DNA of 64,000 bases from contig JAGGSH010000011.1 in assembly GCA_021159185.1 (NCBI GenBank), positions 12,307-76,306 of the forward strand. Reading direction: 5' to 3'. The stretch is from a bacterium (GTDB lineage: Bacteria > Patescibacteriota > Minisyncoccia > Moranbacterales > UBA9337). The notes below the pieces were generated by a model that saw only the letters and a list, made by a program, of their open reading frames with translations, was not told where the DNA came from and made no database searches. Within the stretch, counting starts at the first letter, position 1, and each line of letters starts with the position of its first letter. The position numbers and the translations under genes were made by a program. This document shows, one piece after another, positions 27,579 through 62,647 of the stretch.

Positions 27579-27584
27579 TTTATG

Positions 27585-27613
27585 ATACTAGCAGATTAAA
27601 CAACTTTTGTCAA
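27585..27613 (-). promoter_or_regulatory. Sigma-70-like promoter (TTGACA, 17 bp, TAGTAT) on the minus strand
   Basis: The reverse complement reads ttgacaaaagttgtttaatctgctagtat. Confidence 0.45.
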
Positions 27614-27891: not shown

Positions 27892-27919
27892 TTGACAAAT
27901 TTTGCCAGTCTGCTATACT
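27892..27919 (+). promoter_or_regulatory. Sigma-70-like promoter TTGACAAATTTT...TATACT, near-identical to the one at 56940-56967
   Basis: cttgacaaattttgccagtctgctatactgg. It drives a leader of about 790 nt upstream of the small-ORF operon. Confidence 0.5.
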
Positions 27920-28716: not shown

Positions 28717-28944
28717 ATGAAAAACAAAAGCGCAAGCATTATTATGAGGAAAAGCTTTATTGGGATCATAATCTCATTATTAAGAGAGGACGATCTCGAA
28801 GCAGCCCAACTCATGGGCTACTGGGGTGCAGAGGGCAATGAGGAGGAGTACGATAAGTGCTTCGAGCGCTCTGAAAAACTTGAAACGGTCATCAGGCTCC
28901 TCGGTGAGTTATACCTCGAGGAGAAAAAGGAGGAGATGTCATGA
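28717..28944 (+). CDS. Small acidic hypothetical protein (75 aa), first gene of a foreign-like small-ORF operon
   Basis: Strong SD (aaaaaggagaagc). Codon usage is GAG/CTC/TAC/GGC-rich, unlike host genes. Its stop overlaps the next gene's start (ATGA). Confidence 0.5.
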   Translation: MKNKSASIIMRKSFIGIIISLLREDDLEAAQLMGYWGAEGNEEEYDKCFERSEKLETVIRLLGELYLEEKKEEMS

Positions 28945-43807: not shown

Positions 43808-44023
43808 AAAACAAGATTTCATTATTTTAATCATAAGCGAGTTAAAAGAGTTAGTCAATTTAATCTCAAAAGCGGAATATAATCTTTTGCGGTAAAAATA
43901 AATGGAATAACTTGTGTATAACTCTCTAAATGATTCTTTTAAACAGCTTATCCACAGATTTAAGGGCTTTGAGGAAAATAAAAAAGGGGACCGCGCTGAA
44001 TTTAGCGTGATTCCCCTAATAAA

Positions 44024-46292: not shown

Positions 46293-46308
46293 TGTTCCAC
46301 GTGGAACA
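46293..46308. promoter_or_regulatory. Palindromic site TGTTCCACGTGGAACA (copy 4 of 6)
   Basis: Perfect palindrome 17 bp after the regulator stop. Confidence 0.55.
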
Positions 46309-46421
46309 ATAAAAGTACATAACCATAAAGATAAAACAATCGTTTATTTTTAATGGTTTTTTTATAATAAAGTATCTACGAACGATTTATTTAAAATGTC
46401 TTACTAAAAAACAAATCAAAT

Positions 46422-46437
46422 TGTTCCACGTGGAACA
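46422..46437. promoter_or_regulatory. Palindromic site TGTTCCACGTGGAACA (copy 5 of 6)
   Basis: Perfect palindrome. Confidence 0.55.
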
Positions 46438-46520
46438 ATTTGATGTATATAATGTAATCAATAGTGACATATTGCCTTTTTAAACCTCTTTTGGATTATA
46501 TTTTTTGTGATTTACCATGA

Positions 46521-46573
46521 TGTCATTCCCGCGAAACTTGTCCTCGGTTCCGATCGGGGAGCGGGAATCTAGA
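46521..46573. repeat. Family-1 MITE-like element (short unit)
   Basis: tgtcattcccgcgaaacttgtcctcggttccgatcggggagcgggaatctaga. Confidence 0.65.
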
Positions 46574-46704
46574 CTTCGGATAATCTCTTCGAGCTTTCCA
46601 GAATGATAATAGATACTCCATTGGCTTGCTATGGGAGAAAAATTCATTATAAAATTAAAATAGTCATAATATTCTAAGCTGTAAAAATGAATACACATTT
46701 AAAA

Positions 46705-46720
46705 TGTTCCACGTGGAACA
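46705..46720. promoter_or_regulatory. Palindromic site TGTTCCACGTGGAACA (copy 6 of 6)
   Basis: Perfect palindrome about 165 bp downstream of the integrase gene's 3' end. Confidence 0.55.
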
Positions 46721-46885
46721 TTAAGTCGTGAAACTCAAAATTTACCAACACTTTAATGTAAAATCTGTGGATAAGTTGTTTAAAAAAATATTATATAAAT
46801 TTCTTATAAGTTTTATGTCAGTTATTATTTTAATATTACCCGAGCTTCTTGACAGAATGTCTTAAAAATGGTGTGATATACTGGA

Positions 46886-47704
46886 TCAATCCAACGGGCT
46901 TTTAATGTTTTTTAGCTTAGGATTGGTAACTTTAGTATAAAGCTGTGTCGTGCGAATGTTCTGATGTTTCAGTAATTTCTGCACATATCGCACATCTACG
47001 CCATTTTCCAGCAAATGAGTGGCAAAACTGTGCCTTAACGAGTGAAAAGTGGCATCTTTCTTTATTTTAGCCAATTTTAAGGCTCTTTCAAAAACTTTCT
47101 GCGCTGTTCGCGTTGACAATTTTCCGCCACGATTACTTTCAAATAACAAATCATTTTTCTTTTTGCCAGCCATTAAACTCTGAATATCAATCTTTAACTT
47201 TTCCGGAAAAATGGCAATGCGGTCTTTTTTGCCCTTAGTGTTTTTAATATGGATAGTCAGTTCTTCTAAAGCAATATCTTTCACTTTTAAATTTATAATT
47301 TCGCTAACTCGCAATCCTGCTCCATAAGCCAAAGATAATAGCAAACGATGTTTGCTATTGGTAATAGCTAAAATAATTTTTTTAATTTCCCGGCGGGATA
47401 ATACAATAGGCAATTTCCGGCTTCTTTTGGCGAATTTTAAGTCAATTTTTTCCGGCGATTTTAAAATTTCTCTATATAAAAATTTTACTGAGTTTAACGC
47501 TAAATTAATTGTCTGGGGCGATAATTTTTTCTTTTGCTTTTTTAATAAAAATTCTCTTACGGCATCATTTTTAGATATAAATTTTTTACTTTTCACAAAT
47601 CGCAGATATTCCGCGATATAATATAAATAAGCCTTGATTGTTCCACGGCTATAATTTCGCAATAACATATTTTCTTTAATTTTTTTGAGGCTTATTTTTT
47701 GCAT
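46886..47704 (-). CDS. Tyrosine-type site-specific recombinase/integrase
   Basis: R...HxxR...Y catalytic pattern: AYGAGLRVSEIINLKVKDI, HSLRHSFATHLLENGVDVRYVQKLLKHQNIRTTQLYTKV. Confidence 0.8.
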   Translation of the reverse strand: MQKISLKKIKENMLLRNYSRGTIKAYLYYIAEYLRFVKSKKFISKNDAVREFLLKKQKKKLSPQTINLALNSVKFLYREILKSPEKIDLKFAKRSRKLPIVLSRREIKKIILAITNSKHRLLLSLAYGAGLRVSEIINLKVKDIALEELTIHIKNTKGKKDRIAIFPEKLKIDIQSLMAGKKKNDLLFESNRGGKLSTRTAQKVFERALKLAKIKKDATFHSLRHSFATHLLENGVDVRYVQKLLKHQNIRTTQLYTKVTNPKLKNIKSPLD

Positions 47705-47772
47705 ACGATGAAAATATTTGATACAGTATGATTATTATAGTGGATGTTTTTGTCCATTAATATTATACCATA

Positions 47773-47810
47773 CTTCATATAATATACAAATATTTGTATA
47801 TTATATGAAG
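47773..47810. repeat. Perfect 38-bp palindrome (cttcatataatatacaaat|atttgtatattatatgaag) just upstream of the integrase gene
   Basis: The 19-bp arms are exact reverse complements. Candidate recombinase core/arm site or operator. Confidence 0.5.
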
Positions 47811-47866
47811 ATAGTTCGCATAATAACCAGTTGTGACGAAATTCCGCTCCGCTTCATTTCATCACA

Positions 47867-48002
47867 ATGCCCGCCGTTACACGGCTATCGTGCTCCGCAG
47901 AGCTTCGCACAACAACCGTTTATGCACCGCTTACGCTACATTTTCATTTTCCCAAAAGTAAAACTTTTGTTAAAATGAAAACGTTGCATAAACGGCGGGC
48001 AT
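47867..48002. other. GC-rich long imperfect hairpin region (arms atgcccgccgtt / aacggcgggcat ~110 nt apart, nested ttttcatttt/aaaatgaaaa arms)
   Basis: Compositional island in AT-rich DNA with nested inverted repeats. Possible structured RNA or decayed foreign fragment. Confidence 0.3.
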
Positions 48003-48189
48003 TAGGCGAAATCAATTTTTACTTTTTAGATTTTGCTCCAGAGACTTTTTCTTTTTTTAAGAATAAGGAAAGAAAGTTTGATTTTCATTTTTTAATTAGG
48101 GGAGGGATAAGATAAGCGGATATTTTTTGTTCCGTACTTCCGCAAAAAATGAATTATTAAATTTTAAGTAGAAATGTTAAGATAAATTT

Positions 48190-48720
48190 ATGAATAAAAA
48201 AATCATATTTACAATCTTAATTATCATCATTGTTATTGGCGGAATATATTTATGGCAAAAAAACCAACAGAATCAAAGCCCCATTGAAAATAATTCTATT
48301 GAACAAATTCCGACTGGAACAACAAATGGCATAAATAATTTTCAACTTCTAGAAATTGCAAAGCAACATGTTCTAAGCAAACCGCAATTATATTTGAACA
48401 GAGATAAATTCGTTGCATGGGATGATTATAATGAAATAGATTCTAGTTTTTCCAAAGCCACTCCTGAATGGATTATTTCTCAAAAGTCAGATATAAGATA
48501 CATTGAACCAAATAAATATCCTGCACCGCATGACAATTTAAATGATAAATACATTGTTAGTTGGTTCTTCATTCCTAGATGCGAAGAAAATCCAAGTAGT
48601 AATAATAAACCAAATTGGTTTGATAAAAAAGGTCGTCAATGTGTTGGGGGTTATCAATTAAGTGTAATGATAAATCCTAATGAAACAATTGATTATGTAG
48701 CATTAGACGCTCTTGACTAA
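48190..48720 (+). CDS. Hypothetical N-terminally anchored or secreted protein (176 aa)
   Basis: N-terminal hydrophobic segment IIFTILIIIIVIGGIYLW. Confidence 0.45.
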   Translation: MNKKIIFTILIIIIVIGGIYLWQKNQQNQSPIENNSIEQIPTGTTNGINNFQLLEIAKQHVLSKPQLYLNRDKFVAWDDYNEIDSSFSKATPEWIISQKSDIRYIEPNKYPAPHDNLNDKYIVSWFFIPRCEENPSSNNKPNWFDKKGRQCVGGYQLSVMINPNETIDYVALDALD

Positions 48721-49628
48721 TTCGCTAATGAAAATTTGCCCTGAAAAAACTTGCTCACTATTGTTCGCACCACATTGCGTTCTCGCTTCACTTCGTTACA
48801 CTTGGGTCACTTAACAAGAAATAAAAGAAAAATTGCTTGGCTCGCAATTTTCCCAAATTTTCTCCACTACACTCCGAAAACTTCTTTTATCCCTGATGTT
48901 ATTCGCAATTCCGTTTTACTCTATTGCGAATAACGCGCGCGGATGTCTCTCTGCTGTCATACTCCATTCCGCTCCCCTCCAAGGGCGGACAAGCGCGGAA
49001 CTTCGTATAACTTCGGATCATCCGCGCGCGTTAAATATAGTTCGCCAAGTTGTAGAAGATGCGGATATTATTAACGAACTTTTCACCAGCTTTAGCAAGA
49101 AGAAGGGTCTGGCTAAAAAACTTTAATGGCTGCTATAAAAAATATCAAGGGAATTTACCTTTGCCTGCCAGTAGGAAGACTTTTGATTTCCACTTTAGTC
49201 AGATAACCAAAAAAATTGCCCCATTTTCTTAATATGGTATACTGTAAATAATTGATTAAATCATATTAAGCATTTATATAAATTATTTATCACTCAATCA
49301 ATAGAGCGCTCTCTTGATATTTATCTCAAAACTTTAACGCCTGCGAATCAAAAACAAGAAAAATTTTTAACTTTAAAAAAATATCCAAAATTACTCCATT
49401 CTCCGCAAAATATCTTAACTTGCTTGCCAGACAAGGGAAACTTGAGGCATTCAAAGAGGATAGAGACTGGCTAACTTCAAGAGAGGCTGTTGAGCGGTAT
49501 CTTAAAAACCGAACCAGAAAAAGAAAAACTATAAAATAAAAAAATCAAATTTTCTTTTATCCCTGATGTGAAATTACAAATCCACTTAACGCGACTAAAA
49601 AATTTGATAAATCTAACTAACAAATATT

Positions 49629-50501
49629 ATGAAAAAAAACGCGATAACTTTAATTTTACTGGGACTATTTTTAGTTTCATCTTTGGCCTTAGCTCAAGAA
49701 CAAGCTCCAATTCAAGAACAAGCTCCAATTCAAGAACAAGCTAAAATATATTCCGGCTTTAACAGGTTCGTAGATAATGTCAGAATGTTTTTTTCTTTCA
49801 GAGATAAAAAAGTAATGCTGGCATTGGACATTAGAGATAAAGAATTAAGCTCCGCTATTGTGAATACAAAAAATGGAGCTAATGAAAAAGCGGAAAAAAA
49901 TCTTGAAAGAGCGAGAAAGAAGCTTCAATTTATTCAAAATAAAGTCTCAAAAGATATAGCGGAAAATGTAAAAACCAATATCAATAAAACAATCAGTAAA
50001 ATCAATGAAGATAAAGATTTATCAAATAATTTTGGAACATATCTCTTAGAAGAGAAGAAAACTCAACTTACGGCAGAATTAGCTATTGAGAAAGATGATA
50101 AAAGCGGAAAAAATAAAGTTGAAATAACCGTAGACGGGGAAAACGGACAATCAAAAATTATGGAAATTGAGGGAAAAATTATGGAAATTGATAATCAAAT
50201 TAAAGAAAGAGTGATTAATAATGTTATTGAAGACGGGAATAATAATAGCGATGGCGGCCTATTTCCGGAAGTTGAAATAGATAAAGCGCCCACTGAAGAA
50301 AAGAAAGATTTCATTAAAAAAGAAATTACGGTAGAAGATGGAATTATTGATGTGGTTGAGGATAACAAAAATAGGATAGACGAGGTGTTGGAAAATAAAG
50401 AAAATGAGGATATGTCTTCAACCGTTAATAATATTGATGGCAAAATAGATGATAAAATAAATGGCGGACCCGGAGAATTGGGCGCAGTTGATAAAGATTA
50501 A
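49629..50501 (+). CDS. Secreted hypothetical protein with a [18 protein letters not shown] tandem repeat
   Basis: Signal peptide, then a direct peptide repeat from the tandem 15-bp DNA repeat at 49690-49740. Lys/Glu/Asp-rich. Confidence 0.5.
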
Positions 50502-51175: not shown

Positions 51176-51208
51176 TTAAAAACTACAGAGTTAACTCTGT
51201 AGTTTTTA
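51176..51208. terminator. Bidirectional rho-independent terminator (aaaaactacagag ttaa ctctgtagttttt)
   Basis: Perfect 12-bp stem between the convergent rbr and rnpA genes. Confidence 0.65.
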
Positions 51209-51547
51209 ATTTAGTAAATTTATTTCTCCGGCAATTCCCAATATTTCTTTTTCTATTTCTTGATAATTTTTTTCCGTAATTCCCGGGTGGCAGACTATAA
51301 CTACATCCAGTCCGTTTTTAATATCGCTTAAATTTGATTGGATGATTTCTCTGGCTTGTCGCTTGATTTTATTTCTAACCACCGCTTTAGGGGAAACTTT
51401 TTTGGAAACGATAAAACCGAACCGGGAATTTCCCAAGTTGTTTTTAGCGAATTTTATTCCCAGAATTTTAGCGTGCCGCCCTTGCCCGAATTTAAAGACT
51501 TTTTCAAAATCTTTTTTGCCGGTAAGGCGGTATTTTTTTGGAAGCAT
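51206..51547 (-). CDS. rnpA: Ribonuclease P protein component
   Basis: 113 aa, MLPKKYRL...SRFGFIVSKKVSPKAVVRNKIKRQAREII, the RnpA signature. Confidence 0.8.
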   Translation of the reverse strand: MLPKKYRLTGKKDFEKVFKFGQGRHAKILGIKFAKNNLGNSRFGFIVSKKVSPKAVVRNKIKRQAREIIQSNLSDIKNGLDVVIVCHPGITEKNYQEIEKEILGIAGEINLLN

Positions 51548-51629
51548 AGGTTTATTGTTAATTTTTAATGCGTTTATCTATTCTCTCTTTAATTTCCTCC
51601 TCTTTAGTTTGGGCAAAATAGAGTATTTA

Positions 51630-51715
51630 TGTCATTCCCGACCCAGTCGGGAATCCAGGATAAAATCGCTAACTTAAAAAGATATTCTGGATTCCCGCTT
51701 GCGCGGGAATGACAT
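51630..51715. repeat. Family-1 MITE-like element
   Basis: gtcattcccgacccagtcgggaatccaggataaaatcgctaacttaaaaagatattctggattcccgcttgcgcgggaatgacat. Confidence 0.75.
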
Positions 51716-51819
51716 GGGAAACATTCTGGATTCCTAGGTCAAGTCTAGAGATGACATAGAAGGAAAAGCGAATAGCGTAGAAGATTTTCATAATACAAGG
51801 CAATAATGGGAATAGTTTG

Positions 51820-54319: not shown

Positions 54320-55096
54320 CTACAGTTTCTGCTCAATGTATTCCCGAAAACCGGAAACCCTTTCTTTTTCGTCCGGGTTGATTAAAAACGGCTCTACATC
54401 TTTAGCCAAGCTCTTCAGGTCAATTTCGGAAATTTTTTCCAATAACCTGCTTTTTAAATCCTGCCGATTTTTAATATTAAATTTCTCCTTTAAATATTTA
54501 TAATTAAAATCAGCCAACTCCATTAAAAAAGCAATGTCGTAGAAATCTCTGCCCTTAGCTCTTTTACGGCCAAAAACAGCTCCGACTTTCTTGGACAAAA
54601 CTATATTAATCGGCGTTAAATTAATATTTCTGAATACATCAAATTTTGTCAACAAAAAATTTTTGGAATTATAACCGATATTTTCCCGCGCCGTATCAAT
54701 CTGAATCATCATTTTCTCATTTTTCATCGGACTCAATTTACTTTCAAATAAAATATCGGAAAATTTTATGTAAGCGTGGCAAGCCAATTTATAAACGGTT
54801 CTAATTTCAATATTATATCCCTCCCGACTCAATTCTTTTTTAATTAAATCAGCCATTTCTTCAAATTCGCTTTTGTTTAGATGAAAATTATCAAAATCCA
54901 GATCTTCCGAAAATCTTCTGCCTTGGTAACAAATTCTAATGGCTGTTCCGCCTAAAAAAGACATTTTTCCGCCAAACTTGCTTTTAAATATCACATCCAA
55001 TATTTTATATTGCAGATATTCTCTTAAAATACTTTTTTCAAACCCCTGTAATTTTGGATAATACTTTTTTATCTCATTAAGATCTAACATAGGCAT
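54320..55096 (-). CDS. Nucleotidyltransferase AbiEii/AbiGii toxin family (second copy)
   Basis: KFGGKMSFLGGTAIRICYQGRRFSEDLDFD, the AbiEii (DUF1814) signature. Confidence 0.7.
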   Translation of the reverse strand: MPMLDLNEIKKYYPKLQGFEKSILREYLQYKILDVIFKSKFGGKMSFLGGTAIRICYQGRRFSEDLDFDNFHLNKSEFEEMADLIKKELSREGYNIEIRTVYKLACHAYIKFSDILFESKLSPMKNEKMMIQIDTARENIGYNSKNFLLTKFDVFRNINLTPINIVLSKKVGAVFGRKRAKGRDFYDIAFLMELADFNYKYLKEKFNIKNRQDLKSRLLEKISEIDLKSLAKDVEPFLINPDEKERVSGFREYIEQKL

Positions 55097-55691
55097 TAAT
55101 TAATTTTATCTTTTGAGTTATTTTTTTTGAGTCAAATTTTCTTAAATAGTTATTTAATTTGCCACAGCCTATTGTTTCCTTAAAAACTTCCTTATTAAGC
55201 CTTAATTCATAAACATCGTTTTTATTAACTATATCGTTCCTAAAATACAAAAAATCCAGTAAAGCTTTTTCCGGATCGGCGATTTTAAAGGAAATTTTTT
55301 CATTTTTAATTAACCTATAACCAAAAAATAGTTCTGTTTTAATATTGCGATATGAAAAGTTTCCAATTTCCGATTTTATCATTCTTGTTTTTTTTGTGGT
55401 AACGGAAGTGTACAAAAAAACAGTTTCCGGAATTAAATTATAGTAACTCAAAGCGTATTCAAGACTTAGATAAGATGGTTCGTAAAGCTTGTTGGATATA
55501 AAATTCATTTCAAAATCAGATAATTGCTTGTCGGCAAAAATATAAAAATTATTGGCTACTTTTTTCAAATAATGCTTTTTTTGCCATTCATACAAGCGGC
55601 GATGATCAAAATCGCTCTCCGCATTTTTAATATCCGATAAATGAATAATCGGATATTCCTTGAAGTGATTAGAAAAGTCAATGTATTTCAT
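55077..55691 (-). CDS. AbiEi-family antitoxin (second copy), overlapping the toxin gene by 20 nt
   Basis: Roughly 200 aa, positioned upstream of and overlapping the AbiEii gene, with the same architecture as the 38027-38635 / 37324-38037 pair. YEPSYLSLEYALSYYNLIPE parallels YSPSYISFETVLRDAGMIFQ. Confidence 0.5.
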   Translation of the reverse strand: MKYIDFSNHFKEYPIIHLSDIKNAESDFDHRRLYEWQKKHYLKKVANNFYIFADKQLSDFEMNFISNKLYEPSYLSLEYALSYYNLIPETVFLYTSVTTKKTRMIKSEIGNFSYRNIKTELFFGYRLIKNEKISFKIADPEKALLDFLYFRNDIVNKNDVYELRLNKEVFKETIGCGKLNNYLRKFDSKKITQKIKLINAYVRS

Positions 55692-55762
55692 TTCTATTTT
55701 TAGTTATTTTTAACTAATTTCTGAAATAAGTATAACACCGGCTAAAGCAATGGTCAAGTTTT

Positions 55763-56668
55763 TCACCGCTTTCTGTGAAATTTTTGATAAACTCCTTCCA
55801 AGCGACGGTTAGTTATATGGGTGTAAATTTGGGTGGTGGTGATAGACGAATGCCCCAGCATTTCTTGGACACTGCGGATATCGGCGCCGTTGGCCAATAA
55901 ATCAGTGGCAAAAGTGTGGCGTAAAGTATGCGGATGGACATTTTTTATAATCCCGGCTTTAATCGCGTATTCTTTCACTATTCTTTGGACGCTTCTGGGC
56001 GTTAATCTTAAATCAGCGTCTTTGGGAATTTTTTTCACAACGCGGACGAATAATGCCGGGTCAGTGTCTATTCTCTCTTCAAGATATTTTCTTATCGCTT
56101 CTTTGGCTGTGTCGGAGATAAAAACAATTCTGGTTTTTCTGCCTTTTCCCTTAACGCTAAAATTTTGCTTTTCCAGATTGATTTTATCCCGGTCTATATT
56201 TACCAGCTCCGAAACGCGCAGGCCGGCTGAAAAAAGAAGCTCCAAAATGGCGCGGTCGCGCAAAGATTTTAAATCCGTTCCATTGGCTGAATTCAAAAGG
56301 CGATCCACTTCTTCCGGCTCCAAGAATTCCACTTCGCGTTGCGAACTTTTCCCTATTTCCACTTTTTCCGCTGAAAGCGTTTCAATGTCCTGCTTCGCCA
56401 AATATTTTAAAAACCCGCGGAGAACGATGACATAATTATTTTGAGTAACTTGTTTTAAGCAATTTCCCTTTGCGTCTTGGCGGCGGTTAAGGTAAAGTCG
56501 GTACTTTTTTACCAAGCCTAAATCAATATCGCCGGGATTTTTAATTTTAGACCAATTTAAAAAATAAATTAAACAGCGATGATAATTTTCCACTGTTTTG
56601 GGTGAGCGGCTTAATTCAATTTCCAGATGCTCTAAAAATTCTATGAGAAGAGTTTTGATGTTTGACAT
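55763..56668 (-). CDS. Tyrosine recombinase, XerC/XerD-like
   Basis: N-terminal SAM-like core-binding domain. LRDRAILELLFSAGLRVSELVNI...HTLRHTFATDLLANGADIRSVQEMLGHSSITTTQIYTHI. Confidence 0.8.
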   Translation of the reverse strand: MSNIKTLLIEFLEHLEIELSRSPKTVENYHRCLIYFLNWSKIKNPGDIDLGLVKKYRLYLNRRQDAKGNCLKQVTQNNYVIVLRGFLKYLAKQDIETLSAEKVEIGKSSQREVEFLEPEEVDRLLNSANGTDLKSLRDRAILELLFSAGLRVSELVNIDRDKINLEKQNFSVKGKGRKTRIVFISDTAKEAIRKYLEERIDTDPALFVRVVKKIPKDADLRLTPRSVQRIVKEYAIKAGIIKNVHPHTLRHTFATDLLANGADIRSVQEMLGHSSITTTQIYTHITNRRLEGVYQKFHRKR

Positions 56669-56699
56669 ATTTCTATGAAGGATCTCTACGAATTACTTT

Positions 56700-56820
56700 T
56701 TTCTTCTCCCCCTCCTCTTTGAGGAGGGGATTGAGGGGTGGTGTTATTTCCACCAGCGATATTTCACACCCCTCCGCCCTACGGGCACCTCCCCTCAAAG
56801 AGGGGAGGAAGTAAAAGCTA
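56700..56820. repeat. GC-rich palindromic repeat (family 2-like: ctccccctcctctttgaggaggggattgagggg ... cccctcaaagaggggagg)
   Basis: Long inverted-repeat structure related to the gggga/tcccc hairpins at 22741-22800 and 22965-23012. Confidence 0.6.
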
Positions 56821-56939
56821 ACTTTATCTTACCCCAATCTGCCGAAAATAAAAAGAAATTTGCTGAAAGCAAAAATATTCCCGCTTTTTAGCTTATTCAA
56901 GCTAAAATTACGCGCTGTGAATAAGTCCGCAAAAATTAT

Positions 56940-56967
56940 TTGACAAATTTTCAGCATCTCCTATACT
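56940..56967 (+). promoter_or_regulatory. Sigma-70-like promoter TTGACAAATTTT...TATACT upstream of the T4SS-like cluster
   Basis: ttgacaaattttcagcatctcctatact. The -35 region, 12 bp downstream of it, the spacer length and the -10 match the 27892-27919 promoter. Confidence 0.5.
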
Positions 56968-57113
56968 ACCCGTTAAGCGTAAAAGTTAGAGTTTTAGCCG
57001 ATAGGCGGATAGCAATATAGGCAACTGTGAAAAAACGCTTTAAAGCTAAAACTAAATGAAAGATAAATATTATTAGTAGACAAATCCTTGTTTGTCATTC
57101 AAGACCGGAACGA

Positions 57114-58271
57114 TTGAGTCTGAAGCTGAAAGATCTTCAAACTAAAATTTATCACTGGCAAGCGAATTTCGCCAGCTTGGTTAAAGAACGCAGGACCATA
57201 AAATTGCTGCATGTTTTGAGAAATTATTCTGCTTTAGCGGTAGTAGTTTCCAGCGCCATTTTGGTAATAGCTACCAATATGGCGTCCGGCAAAGAGTCTC
57301 GCGGTTTTTTGTTTGGACACTGGAACGACAGTGAAGAAGTTGAAAGCCCTCGGAAAAATAAGATTAGCGGACAAATAAACCGCGAAAGCGGATTGGTTTT
57401 CGTTCCTTTGGCGCAGGCTAGCGCCGCGGTAGATGTGGAGCTTAAAAAAGATGACGAGGAAGAAGTTTCCATTATTCAGGGAAATCAAGGGCAAGTAATG
57501 GTAGCTAATAACAGTCCTGTTTTAAAAGATCCTAAAGAAGGTGAAGGGGTGATTATCTATGAAGTGGAAGAAGGGGATACAGTGAGTTCTATTGCCATCG
57601 CTCACGGAATTACCGTAAATACTATTCTTTGGGCTAATGACATAGATGATATTGATTCTATAATGCCCGGAGACAAGATATTTATTCTTCCCGTAGCCGG
57701 ATTATCTTATACTGTCAAAAAAGGCGATTCGCTTAAAAGCATTGCCAAAGAATATGAAGCTGATGAGAAAAAAATTATCGCTTTCAATGATCTTCCGGCC
57801 AATGGAAAAATAGAAGCCGGGCAGGAAATAATTATACCCGGCGGGAAGAAAGAAATTCCGCTAAGCGCTACTGAATCTTCAAGAATCGCGCGAAGGCAAT
57901 ATGCCACTCCTTCCGGAGGCGCTCCCGCAGTTTCCGGCTGGAAAAAGCTGGATGGGAAAGCCGGCACGGGACACAAATTTCCTTATGGTTATTGCACCTG
58001 GTATGTTTCCCAAAAACGATATATTCCATGGGGAGGGAATGCCGGAACTTGGCTGTATCACGCTAAAGTTAGCGGATACAAAACAAGCAAAACGCCAAGA
58101 AAAGGCTCTATTATCGTAACTTCCGAATCTTGGTGGGGGCATGTCGGCATTGTGGAAAAAATAGACAAGGGAACAGTCACTATTTCCGAAATGAACCACC
58201 GCGGCTGGGGCAAAGTTTCCCGCCGAACACTATCTTCTAAGAGTAGAGTGATTAAAGGATATATTCGTTAG
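57114..58271 (+). CDS. Membrane-anchored peptidoglycan hydrolase: two LysM domains plus a C-terminal CHAP domain
   Basis: TTG start. TM ALAVVVSSAILVIATNMASG. LysM YEVEEGDTVSSIAIAHGITVNTILWAN and YTVKKGDSLKSIAKEYEADEKKIIAFN. CHAP with GYCTWYV (Cys) ... WWGHVGIV (His). Confidence 0.75.
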   Translation: MSLKLKDLQTKIYHWQANFASLVKERRTIKLLHVLRNYSALAVVVSSAILVIATNMASGKESRGFLFGHWNDSEEVESPRKNKISGQINRESGLVFVPLAQASAAVDVELKKDDEEEVSIIQGNQGQVMVANNSPVLKDPKEGEGVIIYEVEEGDTVSSIAIAHGITVNTILWANDIDDIDSIMPGDKIFILPVAGLSYTVKKGDSLKSIAKEYEADEKKIIAFNDLPANGKIEAGQEIIIPGGKKEIPLSATESSRIARRQYATPSGGAPAVSGWKKLDGKAGTGHKFPYGYCTWYVSQKRYIPWGGNAGTWLYHAKVSGYKTSKTPRKGSIIVTSESWWGHVGIVEKIDKGTVTISEMNHRGWGKVSRRTLSSKSRVIKGYIR

Positions 58272-58410
58272 AATTTTTAATTTTGTAATTTTCAATTTTA
58301 AATAAAGGCAGGCGTTAAGCCTGTCTTTATGTTTCATACAACGCTTCGTGAATTCTAAAATCGTGGTATAATAAAATAAATTTTTTGTACTATTCGCACT
58401 AGATAAAATT

Positions 58411-58842
58411 ATGCCTGAGCAAAATGAAGATCGGAGAGATATTATTAGGAAAACATCCTTGTCTTTGGAAAGAATTGCTAGCGGACCTAAATGGAAGATG
58501 CCCGTGGAAGCGTTCAGGTTAGCTCGGGAATACAGAAGACAAATTAACGAACATAAAAACGCCCCATGGTTAATTATAATTTTAGTATCGGCATGCGTTG
58601 ATTTTTTAGGTGATGCCATTTTTATAGGATATTTCATTAAGCCTTTTTTATTTTTTGCTCTTTGGGGAAAAGGAGCATGGAAAGCTAAAATATTTATTAG
58701 ATTTCTTTTATTTATTGAACTTGTTCCCGGATTGAACTTGCTTCCATTGCAAACATTAGCAGCGGTATACGCATGGAAACATACTGCCCAAAGAGCCAAT
58801 GAAGCTGAAAAAAAATTAGCGAAAATTAAAAAGAATATATAA
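58411..58842 (+). CDS. Small membrane protein (143 aa, 3 TM)
   Basis: Hydrophobic helices. Lies between the CHAP hydrolase and the VirB6-like gene. Confidence 0.4.
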   Translation: MPEQNEDRRDIIRKTSLSLERIASGPKWKMPVEAFRLAREYRRQINEHKNAPWLIIILVSACVDFLGDAIFIGYFIKPFLFFALWGKGAWKAKIFIRFLLFIELVPGLNLLPLQTLAAVYAWKHTAQRANEAEKKLAKIKKNI

Positions 58843-58896
58843 TCTACATCCATATCACCAGTTTTCTTTTTTCCATTTTCTGGTATAATAAATGCG

Positions 58897-60948
58897 ATGA
58901 GACAAAAAACAAAAAGCAAAAAAATTAAAAAGAATAAAGTTTTAAAAAGAGCGCTGGCTTTCTTTTGCTTTTTTATTTTTGCTTTTTCTTTATTGAATTT
59001 AAATTTGGCTTTTTCGGATTTTTCAGGCAGTGGTTTGGATTTTTCTATTGTTAATGAGGCTAATGCAGGAACAGAACATATAGATTTAGCTGAAGAAAGT
59101 GGTGGCTGGTGGCCTTTTGATAACCCTTTTGTGGTGGGCATTAACTGGATACTATACGGATTTTTTAGGCTTCTTGCGCTGTTGCTTGGCATAGCCGGTT
59201 TTCTTTTTGACTGGGCGATAGACGCCAATAATATCCGGGATGTTATTCATCGGCAAGCTATTTATGACGCTTGGAAAATGGTAAGGGATTTTCTTAATTT
59301 GGGATTTATTTTAATTCTTTTATATTCGGCTTTTTGCACTATATTTCAAATAGAAAAGTATCATCTTAAAAAAATTCTTTTGATGCTAGTGCTAATGGCG
59401 CTTTTGGTTAATTTCAGTTTTCCCATTTCCCGCTTTATCGTGGACGCTTCCAATGTGACTATGTATTATTTTCTGAATTCAGCTTTTAACCAGGAAGAAA
59501 CGAAAAGTTTTTCCGCCGGACTTACGGGACCTACCGGAATCGCTGATATGCTAGTTCCCAGAGAAAGTGATGGAGATTTTGATTCAGGCGGTTCTACTGT
59601 CCAGATAATGATGGCGATATTTTTCATATTTTGTTTGATGATCACTATGTTTGTGATCGCGGCCATATTTGTAATCCGCATAGTGGCGCTGGCCGTGTTG
59701 ATTATTTTTTCTTCCATCGGATTCGTGGCGGCGGTTTTCCCGGATACTAAATCGTTTGCCAATCAATGGTGGTCTAATCTTTTTAAGTACGCTTTTACTG
59801 GACCCATTTTAGTTTTTATGATGCTGATCGCCTATAATTTAATGAGAGAAATGGCCGCGGAGGGAACAAAAGAATCAATGAAGCAATACGCGCAAAATTA
59901 TGGGCACAATCCGAGCTTATTAGCCAATGCCGCTTATTTCTTTATACCTATAGTTATTCTTTGGATGGGTATTATCGCCACGCAAAAAATGGGTATTGCC
60001 GGGGCCGACTGGACGGTGAAAAAAGCTACCGGCGCCCGCGACTGGTTCGCGAAGATTCCGGTGAATACAGCAAGAGGGGCGGGGATGGCTACTGGAATCC
60101 CAGGTGGAGCAAAACAAGCAACTGAATATTATAAAAAGAAAGGTTTACCTGGCCGTTTAGGAAAAATATGGGGTTTGAGAGGAACAGACAAAAGAGAAGA
60201 ATCGGAAGCTAAATTTGAGGGGGCTTTTGTTGGAGCTGGCAAAGGGGAAACTCCGTGGGGAAGTTTGAAAGAAATGAAAAAAAGATGGGAAGGCGGAAGT
60301 AAGAGTGCTCGCGACAAACGCATCGGAGAAAAAGTTAAAGAGAATAAAGATCTCAATGTCAGTGCTTCTCAGTTATCTCAAGATCTTGGCTCTGAAAACG
60401 AAGTGGCCAAAACAGCTGCCGCTATTACTATGGCTGAAAAAGGATTGCTAACTGATATTGACAGATTTAAAAAAGCGCTGGAAGCGGTCGGAAATGATGA
60501 AGACCTAAAGAAGAAAATTATAGACAAAGCGCCGAAAGAAATAACCAGAGATGTGATAAAAGATGGTAAAAGTTTAAATACGGCGCTGACAGCGGCAGTT
60601 ATAAAAGATGAAAAGGGAAATGAAGATAAAGAAGCTACGAAGAGAGTGCAAGAAACAATCAAAGGCAAAATTAAAGCGGACAATAATGTAAAGATCCTGA
60701 TTGACTATGATGAAAGATATGGCGGTAAATCCAAAGATGATGCTTATCGCGACAATTTGGAAAAAATGTCCGCGGAAAATCTAGCTAAACAGAAAAATTT
60801 GCTTGATACCCAAGAATTTCATGAGTTCTTCTTGCGAGATAAAGCTTCTGGAGGGCTAAACGAGGATCCCGATTTCATTGCAAAGACTGCCGAAAATATG
60901 AATATGAAAGACAGGCTGGATTGGAGGAAGAGAGGATATAAGATTTAG
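58897..60948 (+). CDS. VirB6/TrbL-like polytopic membrane protein with a hydrophilic C-terminal domain (T4SS inner-membrane component candidate)
   Basis: 683 aa. Signal/TM, an extracytoplasmic loop, then 6 or more TM helices (GFFRLLALLLGIAGFLFDW, LGFILILLYSAFCTIF, LLMLVLMALLVNF, IMMAIFFIFCLMITMFVIAAIFVIRIVALAVLIIFSSIGFVAAVF, GPILVFMMLIAYNLM), and a ~300-aa charged C-terminal tail. This architecture is typical of VirB6/TrbL/PrgH-like proteins. Confidence 0.45.
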   Translation: MRQKTKSKKIKKNKVLKRALAFFCFFIFAFSLLNLNLAFSDFSGSGLDFSIVNEANAGTEHIDLAEESGGWWPFDNPFVVGINWILYGFFRLLALLLGIAGFLFDWAIDANNIRDVIHRQAIYDAWKMVRDFLNLGFILILLYSAFCTIFQIEKYHLKKILLMLVLMALLVNFSFPISRFIVDASNVTMYYFLNSAFNQEETKSFSAGLTGPTGIADMLVPRESDGDFDSGGSTVQIMMAIFFIFCLMITMFVIAAIFVIRIVALAVLIIFSSIGFVAAVFPDTKSFANQWWSNLFKYAFTGPILVFMMLIAYNLMREMAAEGTKESMKQYAQNYGHNPSLLANAAYFFIPIVILWMGIIATQKMGIAGADWTVKKATGARDWFAKIPVNTARGAGMATGIPGGAKQATEYYKKKGLPGRLGKIWGLRGTDKREESEAKFEGAFVGAGKGETPWGSLKEMKKRWEGGSKSARDKRIGEKVKENKDLNVSASQLSQDLGSENEVAKTAAAITMAEKGLLTDIDRFKKALEAVGNDEDLKKKIIDKAPKEITRDVIKDGKSLNTALTAAVIKDEKGNEDKEATKRVQETIKGKIKADNNVKILIDYDERYGGKSKDDAYRDNLEKMSAENLAKQKNLLDTQEFHEFFLRDKASGGLNEDPDFIAKTAENMNMKDRLDWRKRGYKI

Positions 60949-60968
60949 ATTATTTAAAGTTTCCGTTT

Positions 60969-61052
60969 TGTCATTCTCGTGAAAACGGGAATCCAGGATG
61001 GAATCACTAACTTCAGAAATTACTCTGGATTCCCGCCTGCGCGGGAATGACA
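60969..61052. repeat. Family-1 MITE-like element
   Basis: tgtcattctcgtgaaaacgggaatccaggatggaatcactaacttcagaaattactctggattcccgcctgcgcgggaatgacat. Confidence 0.75.
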
Positions 61053-61088
61053 TAGAGACAGAAATAATAGCAGCAAATTAAGAAAATT

Positions 61089-62204
61089 ATGTTTAAAGAA
61101 ACAAAAAATTATTCCAGCTTTTCTCCGATGATTGTTCCTGTTGCGGAAAATGAAACAGAGGAAGAGTTTTTGCTAAGATGGAAAAAATTTGACGCGTTGC
61201 CAAAAGAAATAAAAAGCAAACTCTCCGCCAGTGAAACACTGAGAGAAATGGAGAATGTAAAACGGATTTTTAATCTGGAGTTGTCGCAAGTAGCCAGTAT
61301 TTCCAGATTAATTAGAAGCTATTATTTCGGCGAAGTGAAAATAGAAAATTTTGTATCCATTCTGTCAAAAGAAATGGAAATTGATTTATCCAAAGCCCAA
61401 GAAATAGCCAAGCATATTACGGAAAAAATAATTAACCAAAGAATACAGAGTAATAGTGGCGCCGGCGACGAAGCTATCGTCAAACTTCCCATTCTTGAAG
61501 CTCTTAAAAAATATCCTAAGTTAGGCAACCAGAGAATTTCCGTCAATAATATAAAGCTCAAAATTTTTCCCGATCCAGTCAGGCCTTCCATTAAAAACTG
61601 GATCGCCGATTATCGCCAAGTTATGGGGACCGGAAATTACGGAGCCATAGAGAAAAGCAATTATTTATTTCACGGTGAGAACGCCAAAAAACTGAATTCC
61701 CAAGAACTGCAAAAGCTGTCGCTGATTTTAAAATCGCTGGACGGCCATATTCCTCTGACTATTAACGCCAAAGATCAGCAAGTAGTATTTCCGTTATTGG
61801 AAGCAAATGAAGAAGCAGCAAGAAGCAAGCATTATGCGACAAGCAAAGAATCAGAAATTAAAACGCCAAGGATGAAATATTTAGCAAAAGAAAGTAATGA
61901 ACCAGAAATTAGAAAAATAATGCCAAACAGCCAAACAGCCAAACAGCCAAATAAAAATAATACCGGCAGTTTCCGTTTTTCATCTCCCCAAACCCTTGAA
62001 TCGGAAAAGGAAGGAAAAAAGAAAATAAAAGTGGACAAGAAAGAGAAAATAGATAAAGTAAATAAAATAAATAAAGCAAGTAAGGTAAGCAAAAATCCTC
62101 GCTACTATCAAATTTATCCCATGGGAATTAATCATAATAGCGAAAAAGAAGAAAGCCGTCCAAAAACAAAAGGGAATGTCGTAAATCTTAGAGAAGATTT
62201 TTAA
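61089..62204 (+). CDS. Hypothetical soluble protein (371 aa) with a Lys-rich repetitive C-terminus
   Basis: Contains a caaacagccaaacagccaaacagcc tandem repeat (QTAKQPNK). Sits in an operon position between the VirB6-like and PrgI-like genes. Confidence 0.4.
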   Translation: MFKETKNYSSFSPMIVPVAENETEEEFLLRWKKFDALPKEIKSKLSASETLREMENVKRIFNLELSQVASISRLIRSYYFGEVKIENFVSILSKEMEIDLSKAQEIAKHITEKIINQRIQSNSGAGDEAIVKLPILEALKKYPKLGNQRISVNNIKLKIFPDPVRPSIKNWIADYRQVMGTGNYGAIEKSNYLFHGENAKKLNSQELQKLSLILKSLDGHIPLTINAKDQQVVFPLLEANEEAARSKHYATSKESEIKTPRMKYLAKESNEPEIRKIMPNSQTAKQPNKNNTGSFRFSSPQTLESEKEGKKKIKVDKKEKIDKVNKINKASKVSKNPRYYQIYPMGINHNSEKEESRPKTKGNVVNLREDF

Positions 62205-62208
62205 TATT

Positions 62209-62616
62209 ATGTTATTCAATGTCCCGCAATTTATCAATGTTGAAGATAAAATAGTCGGACCTTTTACTGGCAAGCAACTATTGTGGCTGGCCGGGCTGGG
62301 AGCCGTTCTGCTTGTTTTATGGAATGTTCTGGAAAAAGCTGTCTTTATTGTTGCCGCTATTCCCATATCCTTAATTTTTTTAGCTTTTACATTTTACCGC
62401 CCATACAATCAGTCACTCGTAAAATTCGTGGCGGCGGGAATCATGTTTCTTTTTCGTCCCAAAACCTATGTCTGGGAAAGAAAAACACTTAAAGTTAAAG
62501 TTCTTCCGGTTAAGAAAAATAAACAAGATTCGGAAATGAATAAAAATAAAGTTATAACTCCCGAAGAAATTAAAGAGCTGGCGGAAACATTAGATAGCAG
62601 GGGAGGGGAGAAATAA
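62209..62616 (+). CDS. PrgI/VirB3-like small two-TM membrane protein immediately upstream of the VirB4-like gene
   Basis: 135 aa with two adjacent TM helices (LLWLAGLGAVLLVLW, FIVAAIPISLIFLAFTFY). Starts 5 nt after the previous stop. Identified by position and topology only. Confidence 0.4.
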   Translation: MLFNVPQFINVEDKIVGPFTGKQLLWLAGLGAVLLVLWNVLEKAVFIVAAIPISLIFLAFTFYRPYNQSLVKFVAAGIMFLFRPKTYVWERKTLKVKVLPVKKNKQDSEMNKNKVITPEEIKELAETLDSRGGEK

Positions 62617-62647
62617 CAAAGAGGGATAGGTAAGAGGAAAATAATAT

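What the first reader, a model, noticed from the sequence alone, without database searches (positions are those of the whole stretch)
46886..49570. Integrase-associated region with a perfect 38-bp palindrome, GC-rich inverted-repeat islands and an 18-bp direct repeat
Immediately upstream of the tyrosine integrase start lies a perfect 38-bp palindrome (47773-47810). GC-rich segments that stand out from the AT-rich background follow. One is at 47840-48010, with 12-bp arms atgcccgccgtt/aacggcgggcat 110 nt apart. Another is at 48925-49035, with 14-bp arms aacgcgcgcggatg/catccgcgcgcgtt. The segments share the short word attccgctcc. An 18-bp direct repeat, ttcttttatccctgatgt, occurs at 48883-48900 and 49550-49567. 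Together these suggest att-type recombination sites and/or structured RNAs belonging to an integrated element. The element probably also comprises the TrmB-like regulator and the 44024-44941 gene, and lies 3 kb from a tRNA-Arg/tRNA-Ala pair.
Basis: seen in the sequence. Interest (0 to 1): 0.5.

Follow-up and report, generated by a model that had tools for sequence, protein, structure and literature searches.

The report
Compact integron-like gene-cassette platform
The palindrome, GC-rich hairpin islands and 18-bp repeat beside this recombinase gene are the insertion site and folded cassette-end sites of a small integron-like gene-capture array, run by an integron-integrase-like enzyme that lacks the extra domain thought to define integron integrases.

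Summary
All the reported sequence features are real; a few coordinates are off by 1-2 bases. They are not attL/attR sites of an island next to a tRNA. The 272-aa tyrosine recombinase (46886-47704, minus strand) best matches integron integrases, but it lacks the ~42-aa IntI-specific domain.

Every homologue (60-90% identity, thousands in Patescibacteria) has the same site upstream: TTCGYATAA-7 bp-TTAKRYGAAAT, plus an accessory box 41 bp away. The window's 38-bp palindrome is that box plus its mirror copy.

Beyond the site lie co-oriented ORFs, each followed by a conserved three-way-junction element:
- 24 of 30 base pairs show compensatory changes.
- All 14 new model matches fall on the same strand and the same side of the recombinase.
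- Each cassette's first bases are the reverse complement of its own AAC box (5.6/6 versus 3.2/6 for non-cognate pairs; 0 of 20000 permutations).

In two pairs of related genomes, homology stops exactly at the G|TT crossover. A ~205-bp ORF-less unit sits at different sites in the two genomes of one pair.

In the window, 47831-49568 holds four cassettes. The two GC-rich islands are ORF-less cassettes. The 18-bp repeat is the 3' end of two cassette sites.

No report of such arrays in candidate-phyla bacteria was found. Recombination itself has not been shown.

The parts
46886..47704 (-). 272-aa tyrosine recombinase, integron-integrase-like but lacking the IntI-specific additional domain
   Evidence: Pfam Phage_int_SAM_4 plus Phage_integrase. 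Best NCBIfam hit is TIGR02249 integron integrase, 213.6 bits against a cut-off of 265, in 2 stretches. Best PDB hit is VchIntIA 2a3v, 4e-47. Query residues 195->197 align to IntI4 200->243, so about 42 residues are missing. The catalytic motifs align: GLRvsE, KGkkdR, HslRHsfATH, H...LYT.
47762..47770 (-). TGGTATAAT, an extended -10-like element for the recombinase gene (inferred)
   Evidence: Read from the sequence. TGATATAAT/TATAAT-like elements sit at the same place in homologous loci. The promoter scan as a whole was not above chance.
47773..47810 (.). 38-bp perfect palindrome: the conserved accessory box (TTCATATAATATACAA, family consensus TTCGTATAATATACAA) plus its inverted copy
   Evidence: The box is conserved about 41 bp from the L arm in 14 loci. 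The relative L041 carries CTTCATAAAATATACAAAT|ATTTGTATATTTTATGAAG, two mirror-image substitutions that keep the palindrome perfect.
47815..47842 (+). attI-like core site: L arm TTCGCATAA (47815-47823), 7-bp spacer TAACCAG (47824-47830), crossover G47830|T47831, R arm TTGTGACGAAAT (47831-47842)
   Evidence: Consensus TTCGYATAA-AAACSAG-TTAKRYGAAAT lies upstream of every homologue. Homology with L041 ends at 47844. Homology between L037 and L039 ends at the same site.
47831..48001 (+). Layout: R' hairpin with the TCCGCTCCGCTTC loop, GC clamp, internal AAC box (GCACAAC), L''/L' pair (GTTTATGCA/TGCATAAAC), ending GGGCA|TT
   Evidence: Folds. Model R1 match at 47878-48012, 20.3 bits, E 0.0013 locally. 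The consensus R arm TTAGGCGAAAT follows at 48002. Units of the same architecture lie next to the site in L012, L037 and L039.
48002..48898 (+). Cassette 2: ORF 48190-48720 (176 aa, N-terminal hydrophobic segment, no Pfam family) plus its cassette-end site
   Evidence: ORF and Pfam. Layout ORF -> site as in the other loci.
48771..48909 (+). attC-like cassette-end site: motif, R'' GGGTCACTTAAC (48804-48815), L'' ATAAAAGAA (48821-48829), hairpin 1, CCCAAATT, hairpin 2, L' TTCTTTTAT (48882-48890), spacer CCCTGATG, then G48898|TT. Contains copy 1 of the 18-bp repeat (48882-48899)
   Evidence: R1 score 124.5 bits. Covariation.
48899..49030 (+).
   Evidence: Its start is complementary to its own AAC box at 11 of 11 positions. 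Model R1 does not recognise it (4.6 bits).
49031..49568 (+). Cassette 4, decayed. Holds an HTH_17-like reading frame without a normal start codon (49318-49539). Ends in a vestigial site of which only the L'-spacer-G|T part survives: copy 2 of the 18-bp repeat, 49552-49569
   Evidence: HTH_17 E 3.5e-4, 21.2 bits, below the Pfam cut-off. No R1 match.

Best explanation
The region is an integron-like gene-cassette platform.

How it is built:
- The recombinase gene (minus strand) faces an attI-like site. The site has two inverted 9-bp arms around a 7-bp spacer, plus an accessory box 41 bp away. In this lineage that box is duplicated into the 38-bp palindrome.
- Circular cassettes insert at [G/A]|TT of this site, or at the same point in the site of a resident cassette.
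- Each cassette carries a folded three-way-junction site: AAC box, L''/L' stem and two hairpins.
- The window array (47831-49568) holds four cassettes: ORF-less unit A, the ORF176 cassette, ORF-less unit B, and a decayed HTH cassette.

Shown here:
- the conserved site
- the co-oriented ORF-plus-site layout
- base-pair covariation in the sites
- complementarity between each cassette's start and its own AAC box
- homology breakpoints at the crossover
- the same ORF-less unit at different sites in related genomes

Inferred, not shown:
- that this recombinase catalyses the exchange
- that the site acts as folded single-stranded DNA, probably the bottom strand
- that cassettes are expressed from a platform promoter
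- that the palindrome is a recombinase-binding or autoregulatory element
For: Recombinase:
- It is closest to integron integrases (TIGR02249 213.6 bits; VchIntIA 4e-47) and its catalytic residues align.

Insertion site:
- One copy of the site sits upstream of each of more than 20 homologues, at a fixed distance.

Cassette-end sites:
- In six MAFFT-aligned sites, 20 of 31 pairs change on both sides and 89.5% of cells are paired, against 29-47% when partners are slid. No shuffle of 500 reached this.
- In 13 sites from 9 loci, 24 of 30 pairs are compensatory and AAC...GTT is invariant.
- Model R1 found 14 further sites beyond its six seed sites, with E between 2e-9 and 3e-4. Every one lies on the outward strand and the outward side of the recombinase. 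The rest of the 64-kb window has none.

Cassette layout and content:
- The pattern site -> outward ORF -> cassette-end site, about 20-50 nt after the stop codon, holds in L006, L009, L012, L014, L020 and the window.
- Cassette genes are varied and accessory: Ldh_2, methyltransferases, glyoxalase, CYTH, DHO_dh, restriction-modification operons, and many with no Pfam family.
- Cassette start versus its own AAC box: 5.59 of 6 variable positions match, against 3.19 of 6 for non-cognate pairs; 0 of 20000 permutations reached this.

Comparison of relatives:
- Window versus L041 (core 79-95% nucleotide identity): homology ends at 47844 and the arrays share nothing.
- L037 versus L039: homology ends at the site. 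A ~205-bp ORF-less unit is 93% identical, while the core is 75-79%. It sits at attI in one genome and after a cassette site in the other, bounded by N|TT on both sides.

Strand and molecule:
- Pairing is almost purely Watson-Crick (318 of 363 cells). There are 3 G.T against 13 A.C cells, which points to DNA and hints at the bottom strand.
Against: - The IntI-specific additional domain is absent. The literature treats it as necessary for attC recombination (Messier & Roy 2001, cited in PMC9668308).
- Only AAC/GTT of the canonical RYYYAAC/GTTRRRY cores is kept. The sites are three-way junctions of 100-220 nt.
- In the window, the ORF176 cassette start matches its own AAC box at only 4 of 6 variable positions. 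Model R1 does not score B. The last site is vestigial.
- No population variants of the window array were seen; contigs L001-L004 are identical to it.
- The family is very large and conserved, which would also fit a housekeeping role.
- Seed sites were picked by eye, and alignment A2 is fitted to the model.
- No experiment shows recombination.
Confidence: 0.75

Rival explanations
1. The recombinase is the housekeeping chromosome-dimer resolvase (a single-Xer system like XerS/difSL or XerH/difH). The adjacent site is the dif site, and the cassettes are small elements that exploit Xer, inserting there as IMEX elements do.
For: - The family is very widespread and conserved in Patescibacteria: at least 6435 clusters, with the 120 best hits 64-90% identical. 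JGI names members XerD.
- The site is an inverted pair of arms around a short spacer, immediately upstream of the gene, in every locus.
- Smyshlyaev 2021 (PMC8138268) groups candidate-phyla recombinases as Xer-related.
- From own knowledge, CTX phage shows that Xer can recombine folded single-stranded DNA.
Against: - XerC and XerD models score lower than the integron model (167 and 166 bits against 214) and fall far below their own cut-offs.
- The window encodes a second recombinase (55763-56668) that passes the XerA-type cut-off (244.6 against 220).
- The locus lies beside six parS-like sites and the window's only two perfect DnaA boxes. That suggests origin-proximal, not terminus.
- The R arm varies between genomes in step with the first cassette.
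- This rival concerns the enzyme's primary role. It does not remove the cassette array.
Confidence: 0.12
2. A classical integrated mobile element (prophage, ICE or island) inserted near the tRNA-Arg/tRNA-Ala pair. The repeats are attL/attR, and the TrmB-like and 305-aa genes are cargo.
For: - A tyrosine recombinase lies 3 kb from two tRNA genes.
- The stretch 43.8-46.8 kb differs between the window and its relative L041.
Against: - No second copy of the core site exists anywhere in the window.
- The 18-bp repeat lies wholly on the far side of the recombinase, within cassette-end sites.
- The recombinase has no arm-binding domain.
- No neighbour gene travels with the recombinase in 30 other loci.
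- No close relatives were found in IMG/VR.
- L041 keeps the recombinase and site without the TrmB and 305-aa genes.
Confidence: 0.04
3. The GC-rich structured islands are structured RNAs (3'-UTR elements, terminators, sRNAs) or REP/MITE-like repeats, with no role in recombination.
For: - Folding z-scores are strong, and stronger on the minus strand with RNA parameters.
- The genome has many other GC-rich hairpin repeats.
- The elements sit just after stop codons.
Against: - No Rfam family matches.
- G.U-type pairs are almost absent: 3 of 363 cells.
- The elements occur only next to the recombinase and in one orientation.
- Complementarity between a cassette's first bases and its AAC box spans up to 4 kb.
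- Homology breakpoints fall exactly at N|TT.
- An RNA or REP element explains none of the last three points.
Confidence: 0.05
4. A phase-variation switch: the recombinase inverts DNA between inverted repeats (the palindrome or the 12-14-nt arms) to switch expression of the downstream ORF.
For: - Weak hits to tyrosine-type DNA invertase models (64 and 55 bits against cut-offs of about 220).
- Inverted repeats lie next to a divergent gene.
Against: - The inverted arms are stems of a covarying fold, not isolated recombination half-sites.
- No contig shows the opposite orientation.
- The architecture in other loci is direct arrays, not invertible segments.
Confidence: 0.03

Closest known systems
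Bacterial integrons (IntI + attI + attC cassette arrays; for example the Vibrio cholerae chromosomal integron with VchIntIA, PDB 2a3v)
   Same: - The recombinase is the closest sequence relative.
- The recombinase gene is divergent from an adjacent insertion site with accessory boxes.
- The crossover is at G|TT.
- Cassettes are co-oriented ORFs, each ending in an imperfect-palindrome site with AAC...GTT cores and an L''/L' stem.
- The cassette start is complementary to its own R'' box.
- ORF-less cassettes occur.
- The array is hypervariable beside a fixed platform.
   Different: - The ~42-aa IntI-specific domain is absent.
- Beyond AAC/GTT, the RYYY/RRRY consensus is not kept.
- R boxes are longer (9-11 nt).
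- Sites are three-way junctions with a conserved upstream CGCT-rich motif.
- Some cassettes are 3-4-kb multi-gene operons.
- Arrays are short (1-7 cassettes in the loci seen).
- Hosts are Patescibacteria.
Archaeal integrons (Ghaly et al. 2022, PMC9668308)
   Same: Integron architecture outside the classical bacterial phyla, found in metagenome-assembled genomes, including DPANN lineages.
   Different: That paper states that archaeal IntIs carry the IntI-specific additional domain and that their attCs have the bacterial folding. Here the domain is missing and the site family is distinct.
Single-recombinase Xer systems with dif next to the gene (XerS/difSL, XerH/difH), and elements that exploit Xer (IMEX, e.g. 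CTX phage; pdif modules of Acinetobacter plasmids). From own knowledge.
   Same: - A simple tyrosine recombinase with its inverted-arm site immediately upstream of its own gene.
- Foreign DNA inserted at that site.
- For CTX phage, a folded single-stranded substrate.
   Different: - Here the inserts are arrays of single-gene cassettes, each with its own conserved folded site in direct orientation.
- The locus is beside parS-like sites rather than at a terminus.
- Xer family models score below the integron model.
'Integron-like' and 'Cand' subgroups of simple tyrosine recombinases (Smyshlyaev et al. 2021, PMC8138268)
   Same: [quoted passage not shown] This protein fits that grey zone.
   Different: That is a protein classification only. 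In the passages retrieved by my term search, no associated site or cassette array is described for such proteins.

Membership tests
Integron | Integrase is a tyrosine recombinase carrying the IntI-specific additional domain around patch III | tested here: not met
   Query residues 195->197 align to VchIntIA 200->243, so about 42 residues are missing. TIGR02249 scores 213.6 bits in two stretches, below the 265 cut-off. Homologues are all about 270 aa.
Integron | attI insertion site adjacent to, and divergent from, the integrase gene, with crossover at G|TT | tested here: met
   The site is conserved at a fixed distance upstream of all homologues. Homology between relatives ends at the G|TT.
Integron | Cassettes end in attC sites: R''...AAC / GTT...R' and L''/L' inverted boxes forming a folded structure | tested here: met
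   AAC/GTT is invariant in 12-13 of 13 sites. The L''/L' stem is 95.7% paired and 8 of its 9 pairs are compensatory. The MAFFT-only alignment gives the same picture.
Integron | Canonical attC consensus (RYYYAAC / GTTRRRY), a single bulged hairpin with extrahelical bases, 57-141 nt | tested here: inconclusive
   The typical R' is GTTATACGAAAT and the typical R'' is ..TATAAC, so only the triplets match. The window's own site does fit (ACTTAAC / GTTAAAT). The structure is a three-way junction of 100-220 nt, with an asymmetric 3-nt versus 6-7-nt spacer. IntegronFinder's attC model could not be run.
Integron | The cassette's first bases derive from its own attC (circular intermediate) | tested here: met
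   5.59 of 6 cognate positions match, against 3.19 of 6 non-cognate; 0 of 20000 permutations.
Integron | Co-oriented, mostly promoterless cassette ORFs expressed from a platform promoter (Pc) | tested here: inconclusive
   Orientation and the short 28-78-nt leaders fit. A TATAAT lies in the accessory box reading outward, but the promoter scan is not above chance.
Integron | Cassettes are mobile: excision and insertion by the integrase, using the folded bottom strand | not testable with these tools
   Indirect evidence only: different arrays in close relatives, and the same ORF-less unit at different sites. The bias of 13 A.C against 3 G.T cells hints at the bottom strand.
Xer/dif chromosome-dimer resolution | Recombinase is an equivalog of XerC/XerD/XerS/XerA | tested here: not met
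   XerC 167.5 bits against a cut-off of 335; XerD 165.7 against 330; XerS 72 against 267; XerA_Arch 211.1 against 220. All fall below cut-off.
Xer/dif chromosome-dimer resolution | A single conserved dif site in the replication terminus | tested here: inconclusive
   The site is single per locus, but its R arm varies. The neighbourhood has six parS-like sites and two perfect DnaA boxes. GC skew in 64 kb is uninformative. The whole genome is not available.
Phage/ICE-type integrase with attL/attR | Direct repeats of the core flank an element that carries the integrase. The integrase has an arm-binding domain and travels with its cargo. | tested here: not met
   No second core copy. Only SAM_4 plus the catalytic domain are present. 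Neighbours are not conserved with the recombinase. No close viral relatives.
Any Rfam RNA family | Covariance-model match at or near the gathering score | tested here: not met
   Only tRNAs reach gathering score in the window. In 46300-49800 there are only sub-threshold miRNA-type hairpin matches.

The most novel reading that the evidence does not exclude
Patescibacteria, and perhaps DPANN archaea, carry a very widespread and so far unrecognised class of integron. Its integrase works without the IntI-specific domain, on a distinct family of three-way-junction cassette sites. This would be either a proto-integron close to the Xer-to-IntI transition or an independent invention. It would supply these tiny, host-dependent genomes with restriction-modification and metabolic accessory genes.
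Probability: 0.45. Interest if true: 0.85.

Novelty: new variant of a known kind. Interest (0 to 1): 0.72.

Why it matters
Integron integrases are defined by an extra domain held to be essential for recognising folded attC sites. A large family that lacks this domain, yet sits beside arrays of folded, covarying cassette sites, matters for three reasons.
- It would change that definition.
- It would bear on how integrons arose from Xer-like recombinases.
- Standard integron finders require the IntI domain, so they would miss a major route of gene exchange in candidate-phyla bacteria, whose genomes are otherwise thought to be streamlined and static.

It also gives a directly testable system: one 272-aa enzyme, a ~70-bp attI-like region and a ~130-nt cassette site.

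Tried and rejected
- Rfam at gathering and permissive thresholds gave nothing relevant.
- Treating the 18-bp repeat as att direct repeats flanking an element was rejected. Both copies lie outward of the recombinase and are the 3' ends of cassette sites.
- A search for a second copy of the core site in the window found none.
- The shared word ATTCCGCTCC is at chance level as a 10-mer. In island A it lies in the 13-nt hairpin loop; nearly the same loop, with this word in it, recurs in the units of L037 and L039, and L012 has similar loops without it.
- The promoter/terminator scan was not above shuffles.
- GC skew over 64 kb follows gene orientation and says nothing about origin or terminus.
- Contigs L001-L004, which carry the identical recombinase, are 100% identical to the window, so they give no population variants. 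L004 ends inside the palindrome.
Divergent sites such as B, and several in L039, therefore stay unscored and were read by eye.
- Cassette 4 has no recognisable 5' half of a site.
- The viral-contig scan found no close relatives.
- Six literature searches for integrons in candidate-phyla bacteria found nothing.
Full report
**1. Observation**

- The 38-bp palindrome (47773-47810) is perfect and unique in the window.
- The two GC-rich islands carry the stated 12-nt arms (47867-47878 / 47991-48002) and 14-nt arms (48932-48945 / 49019-49032).
- Both islands stand out in composition. They fold far better than shuffled controls on both strands, and best on the minus strand.
- The 18-bp direct repeat is exact, at 48882-48899 and 49552-49569.
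- The shared 10-mer is at chance level on its own.
- Other kinds of GC-rich hairpin repeat occur in many intergenic regions of this AT-rich genome. Composition alone is therefore not diagnostic.
- No Rfam family matches.

**2. The recombinase**

ORF 46886-47704 (minus strand, 272 aa) has Phage_int_SAM_4 plus Phage_integrase.
- Its best NCBIfam model is the integron integrase TIGR02249: 213.6 bits, in two stretches, below the 265 cut-off. XerC and XerD score about 166 bits.
- Its best solved relative is the Vibrio integron integrase VchIntIA.
- The residue alignment shows that about 42 residues of VchIntIA (201-242), the IntI-specific additional domain, have no counterpart. The catalytic motifs align.
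- The family is very large: at least 6435 clusters at E<=1e-40, all about 270 aa, from Patescibacteria. Sources name the proteins 'tyrosine recombinase/integron integrase' or 'XerD'.

**3. A conserved site upstream of every homologue**

I collected homologous loci from species genomes and metagenomes.
- All carry one copy of the same sequence at a fixed distance from the start codon. Read away from the gene it is TTCGYATAA-AAACSAG-TTAKRYGAAAT, that is, inverted 9-bp arms around a 7-bp spacer.
- A further box, TTCGTATAATATACAA, lies about 41 bp nearer the gene.
- In the window the core is 47815-47842.
- The further box is the left half of the 38-bp palindrome, and in this lineage the palindrome adds its perfect mirror copy.
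- The close relative L041 has two substitutions in the palindrome, at mirror positions, so it stays perfect there. This is evidence that the symmetry is selected.
- Several contigs end at or within about 230 nt upstream of the recombinase start codon. L005 and L024 end at the L arm itself, and L004 ends inside the palindrome.

**4. Cassette-end sites**

Beyond the site, on the strand pointing away from the recombinase, ORFs are followed about 20-50 nt after the stop codon by a conserved element. Its parts, in order:
- a CGCT-rich motif
- an ...AAC box (R'')
- 3 nt
- L''
- hairpin 1
- CCCAAATT
- hairpin 2
- AACTTC plus L'
- a 6-7-nt spacer
- [G/A]|TT

The structure is supported by covariation.
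- Six such elements aligned by MAFFT give 20 of 31 proposed pairs with changes on both sides. Paired cells are 89.5%, against 29-47% when partners are slid by 1-3 columns. No shuffle of 500 reached this.
- A covariance model built from them (R1) found 14 further sites beyond its six seed sites, with E between 2e-9 and 3e-4: seven, four and three. One of the 14 (L040) is a second contig of the L039 locus. Every one lies on the outward strand and the outward side of the recombinase. The rest of the 64-kb window has none.
- With 13 sites, 24 of 30 pairs are compensatory and AAC...GTT is invariant. This alignment is fitted to the model.
- Pairing is almost purely Watson-Crick, with 3 G.T cells against 13 A.C cells. 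That points to DNA rather than RNA, and weakly to the bottom strand.

**5. The cassette signature**

In 17 cassettes, the bases right after the boundary are the reverse complement of the cassette's own AAC box.
- At the six variable positions the mean match is 5.59, against 3.19 for non-cognate pairs. No permutation of 20000 reached this.
- This is what results when a circular cassette with a single site is opened at [G/A]|TT on insertion, as in integrons.
- Cassette genes are diverse and accessory.
- Some cassettes are 3-4-kb restriction-modification operons (L011, L019, L041).

**6. Relatives**

*Window versus L041.*
- L041 is a close relative of the window genome, with core regions 79-95% identical.
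- Homology covers the CCA-adding enzyme, the tRNAs, the recombinase and the site, and stops at 47844.
- Beyond that point the two arrays share nothing. L041 has three cassettes, each with an R1 hit.
- L041 lacks the TrmB-like and 305-aa genes but keeps a parS-like cluster.

*L037 versus L039.*
- These two share recombinase-Fic-dnaG-rpoD at 75-79% identity, and homology again ends at the site.
- A ~205-bp ORF-less unit is 93% identical in the two genomes. It sits at the insertion site in L037 and after a cassette site in L039, bounded by N|TT on both sides.
- It has the same architecture as window island A: an R' hairpin with the loop TCCGCTCCGCT(T/C)C, a GC clamp, and an internal AAC box with L''/L'.

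*Other loci.* None of the window's neighbour genes accompanies the recombinase elsewhere.

**7. Reading the window**

The array is 47831-49568.

| Cassette | Coordinates | Content |
|---|---|---|
| 1 | 47831-48001 | Island A, ORF-less. The consensus R arm TTAGGCGAAAT follows it. |
| 2 | 48002-48898 | ORF176 plus a full site (48771-48909, 124.5 bits). |
| 3 | 48899-49030 | Island B, ORF-less. |
| 4 | 49031-49568 | Decayed. |

- Cassette 2: the L'-spacer-G|T end of its site is copy 1 of the 18-bp repeat. Its R'' (ACTTAAC), and the GTTAAAT that would follow if B were removed, fit the canonical integron cores.
- Cassette 3: its start matches its own AAC box at 11 of 11 positions. The model does not score it.
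- Cassette 4: it holds an HTH_17-like frame without a start codon. Its vestigial site end is copy 2 of the repeat.

**8. Rivals**

- *Classical island with attL/attR.* Not supported: there is no second core, no cargo is conserved with the recombinase, the protein has no arm-binding domain, and there are no close viral relatives.
- *Housekeeping Xer/dif role.* This cannot be excluded, given how widespread the family is. Against it: Xer models score lower, a second Xer-like gene passes the XerA cut-off, and the locus sits beside six parS-like sites and the only two perfect DnaA boxes in the window. This rival would change the enzyme's primary role, not the existence of the cassette array.
- *RNA or REP-like repeats.* These fail to explain the orientation bias, the long-range complementarity and the breakpoints.

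**9. Known or new**

- Integrons are well known, and archaeal ones were reported in 2022. That paper states that archaeal IntIs have the additional domain.
[quoted passage not shown] In the passages my term search retrieved, it describes no sites or arrays for them.
- Six full-text searches found no report of integrons or cassette arrays in Patescibacteria. The library does not cover all journals.
- I therefore file this as a new variant of a known kind. It works like an integron but fails the defining integrase-domain test.

**10. Limits**

- No recombination has been observed.
- Seed sites were chosen by eye.
- MAG taxonomic labels (for example 'Pacearchaeota', 'Gammaproteobacteria') may be binning errors.
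- The window's own array is small and partly decayed.

Noticed in passing
window 45163, 45208, 45438, 46293, 46422, 46705 (16 bp each): There are six perfect copies of TGTTCCACGTGGAACA, a parS-like palindrome, around the TrmB-like ORF; 0.11 are expected by chance. The relative L041 has seven copies in the equivalent region, without the TrmB-like gene. The annotated start of ORF 45437 (MFHVEH...) is itself one of these palindromes.
   Followed up: partly
window 43948-43956 and 46766-46774: The only two perfect DnaA boxes (TTATCCACA) in the 64 kb flank the parS-like cluster. L041 has several TGTGGATAA boxes there. With rnpA at 51206-51547, this may be the replication origin region.
   Followed up: partly
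window 27305-28940: A stretch of about 1.6 kb has no ORF of 90 aa or more. Its plus strand folds very strongly at 28180-28600 (-159.7 kcal/mol). No Rfam match appears even at a permissive threshold. It may be an unannotated structured RNA.
   Followed up: partly
window 54320-63340: This region holds a second tyrosine recombinase (55763-56668, 301 aa) that passes the XerA-type cut-off. Next to it lie an AbiEii toxin gene, a LysM-CHAP hydrolase, TrbL/VirB6 and PrgI-like genes, i.e. type IV secretion-like genes. It could be a conjugative-element remnant or the usual candidate-phyla T4SS cluster.
   Followed up: no
window 11720-11860, 46520-46570, 51620-51720, 56700-56810: Families of GC-rich hairpin repeats (TGTCATTCCCGCG...GCGGGAATCCAGA, and CCCCTCCTCTTTGAGGAGGGG types) are scattered in intergenic regions. 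They are unrelated to the cassette sites; model R1 does not score them.
   Followed up: partly
window 49694-49747: Three tandem 18-bp copies (TCAAGAACAAGCTCCAAT) lie inside ORF 49629-50501 and encode QEQAPI repeats (D1). Contig L003 ends here.
   Followed up: no
L011 (cassette 1), L019 (cassette 1), L041 7175-9679: The largest cassettes carry DNA methyltransferases or an MmeI-like fused restriction-modification enzyme plus an AAA ATPase. Defence systems appear to be common cargo of these arrays.
   Followed up: partly
L009 (JADHVH010000026.1), L008, L016: Homologous platforms occur in MAGs labelled Pacearchaeota archaeon and 'Gammaproteobacteria'. This could mean cross-domain spread or mis-binning; it was not resolved.
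   Followed up: no
L025 out 8937-9030, L011 contig end, L041 out 10959-10990 and 15215-15240: In some cassettes the start (TTATACGNAATTCAAAAAATATTTTTC) also pairs with a GAAAAATATTTTTTGAA block upstream of the cassette-end motif. This extra long-range complementarity is not captured by model R1.
   Followed up: no
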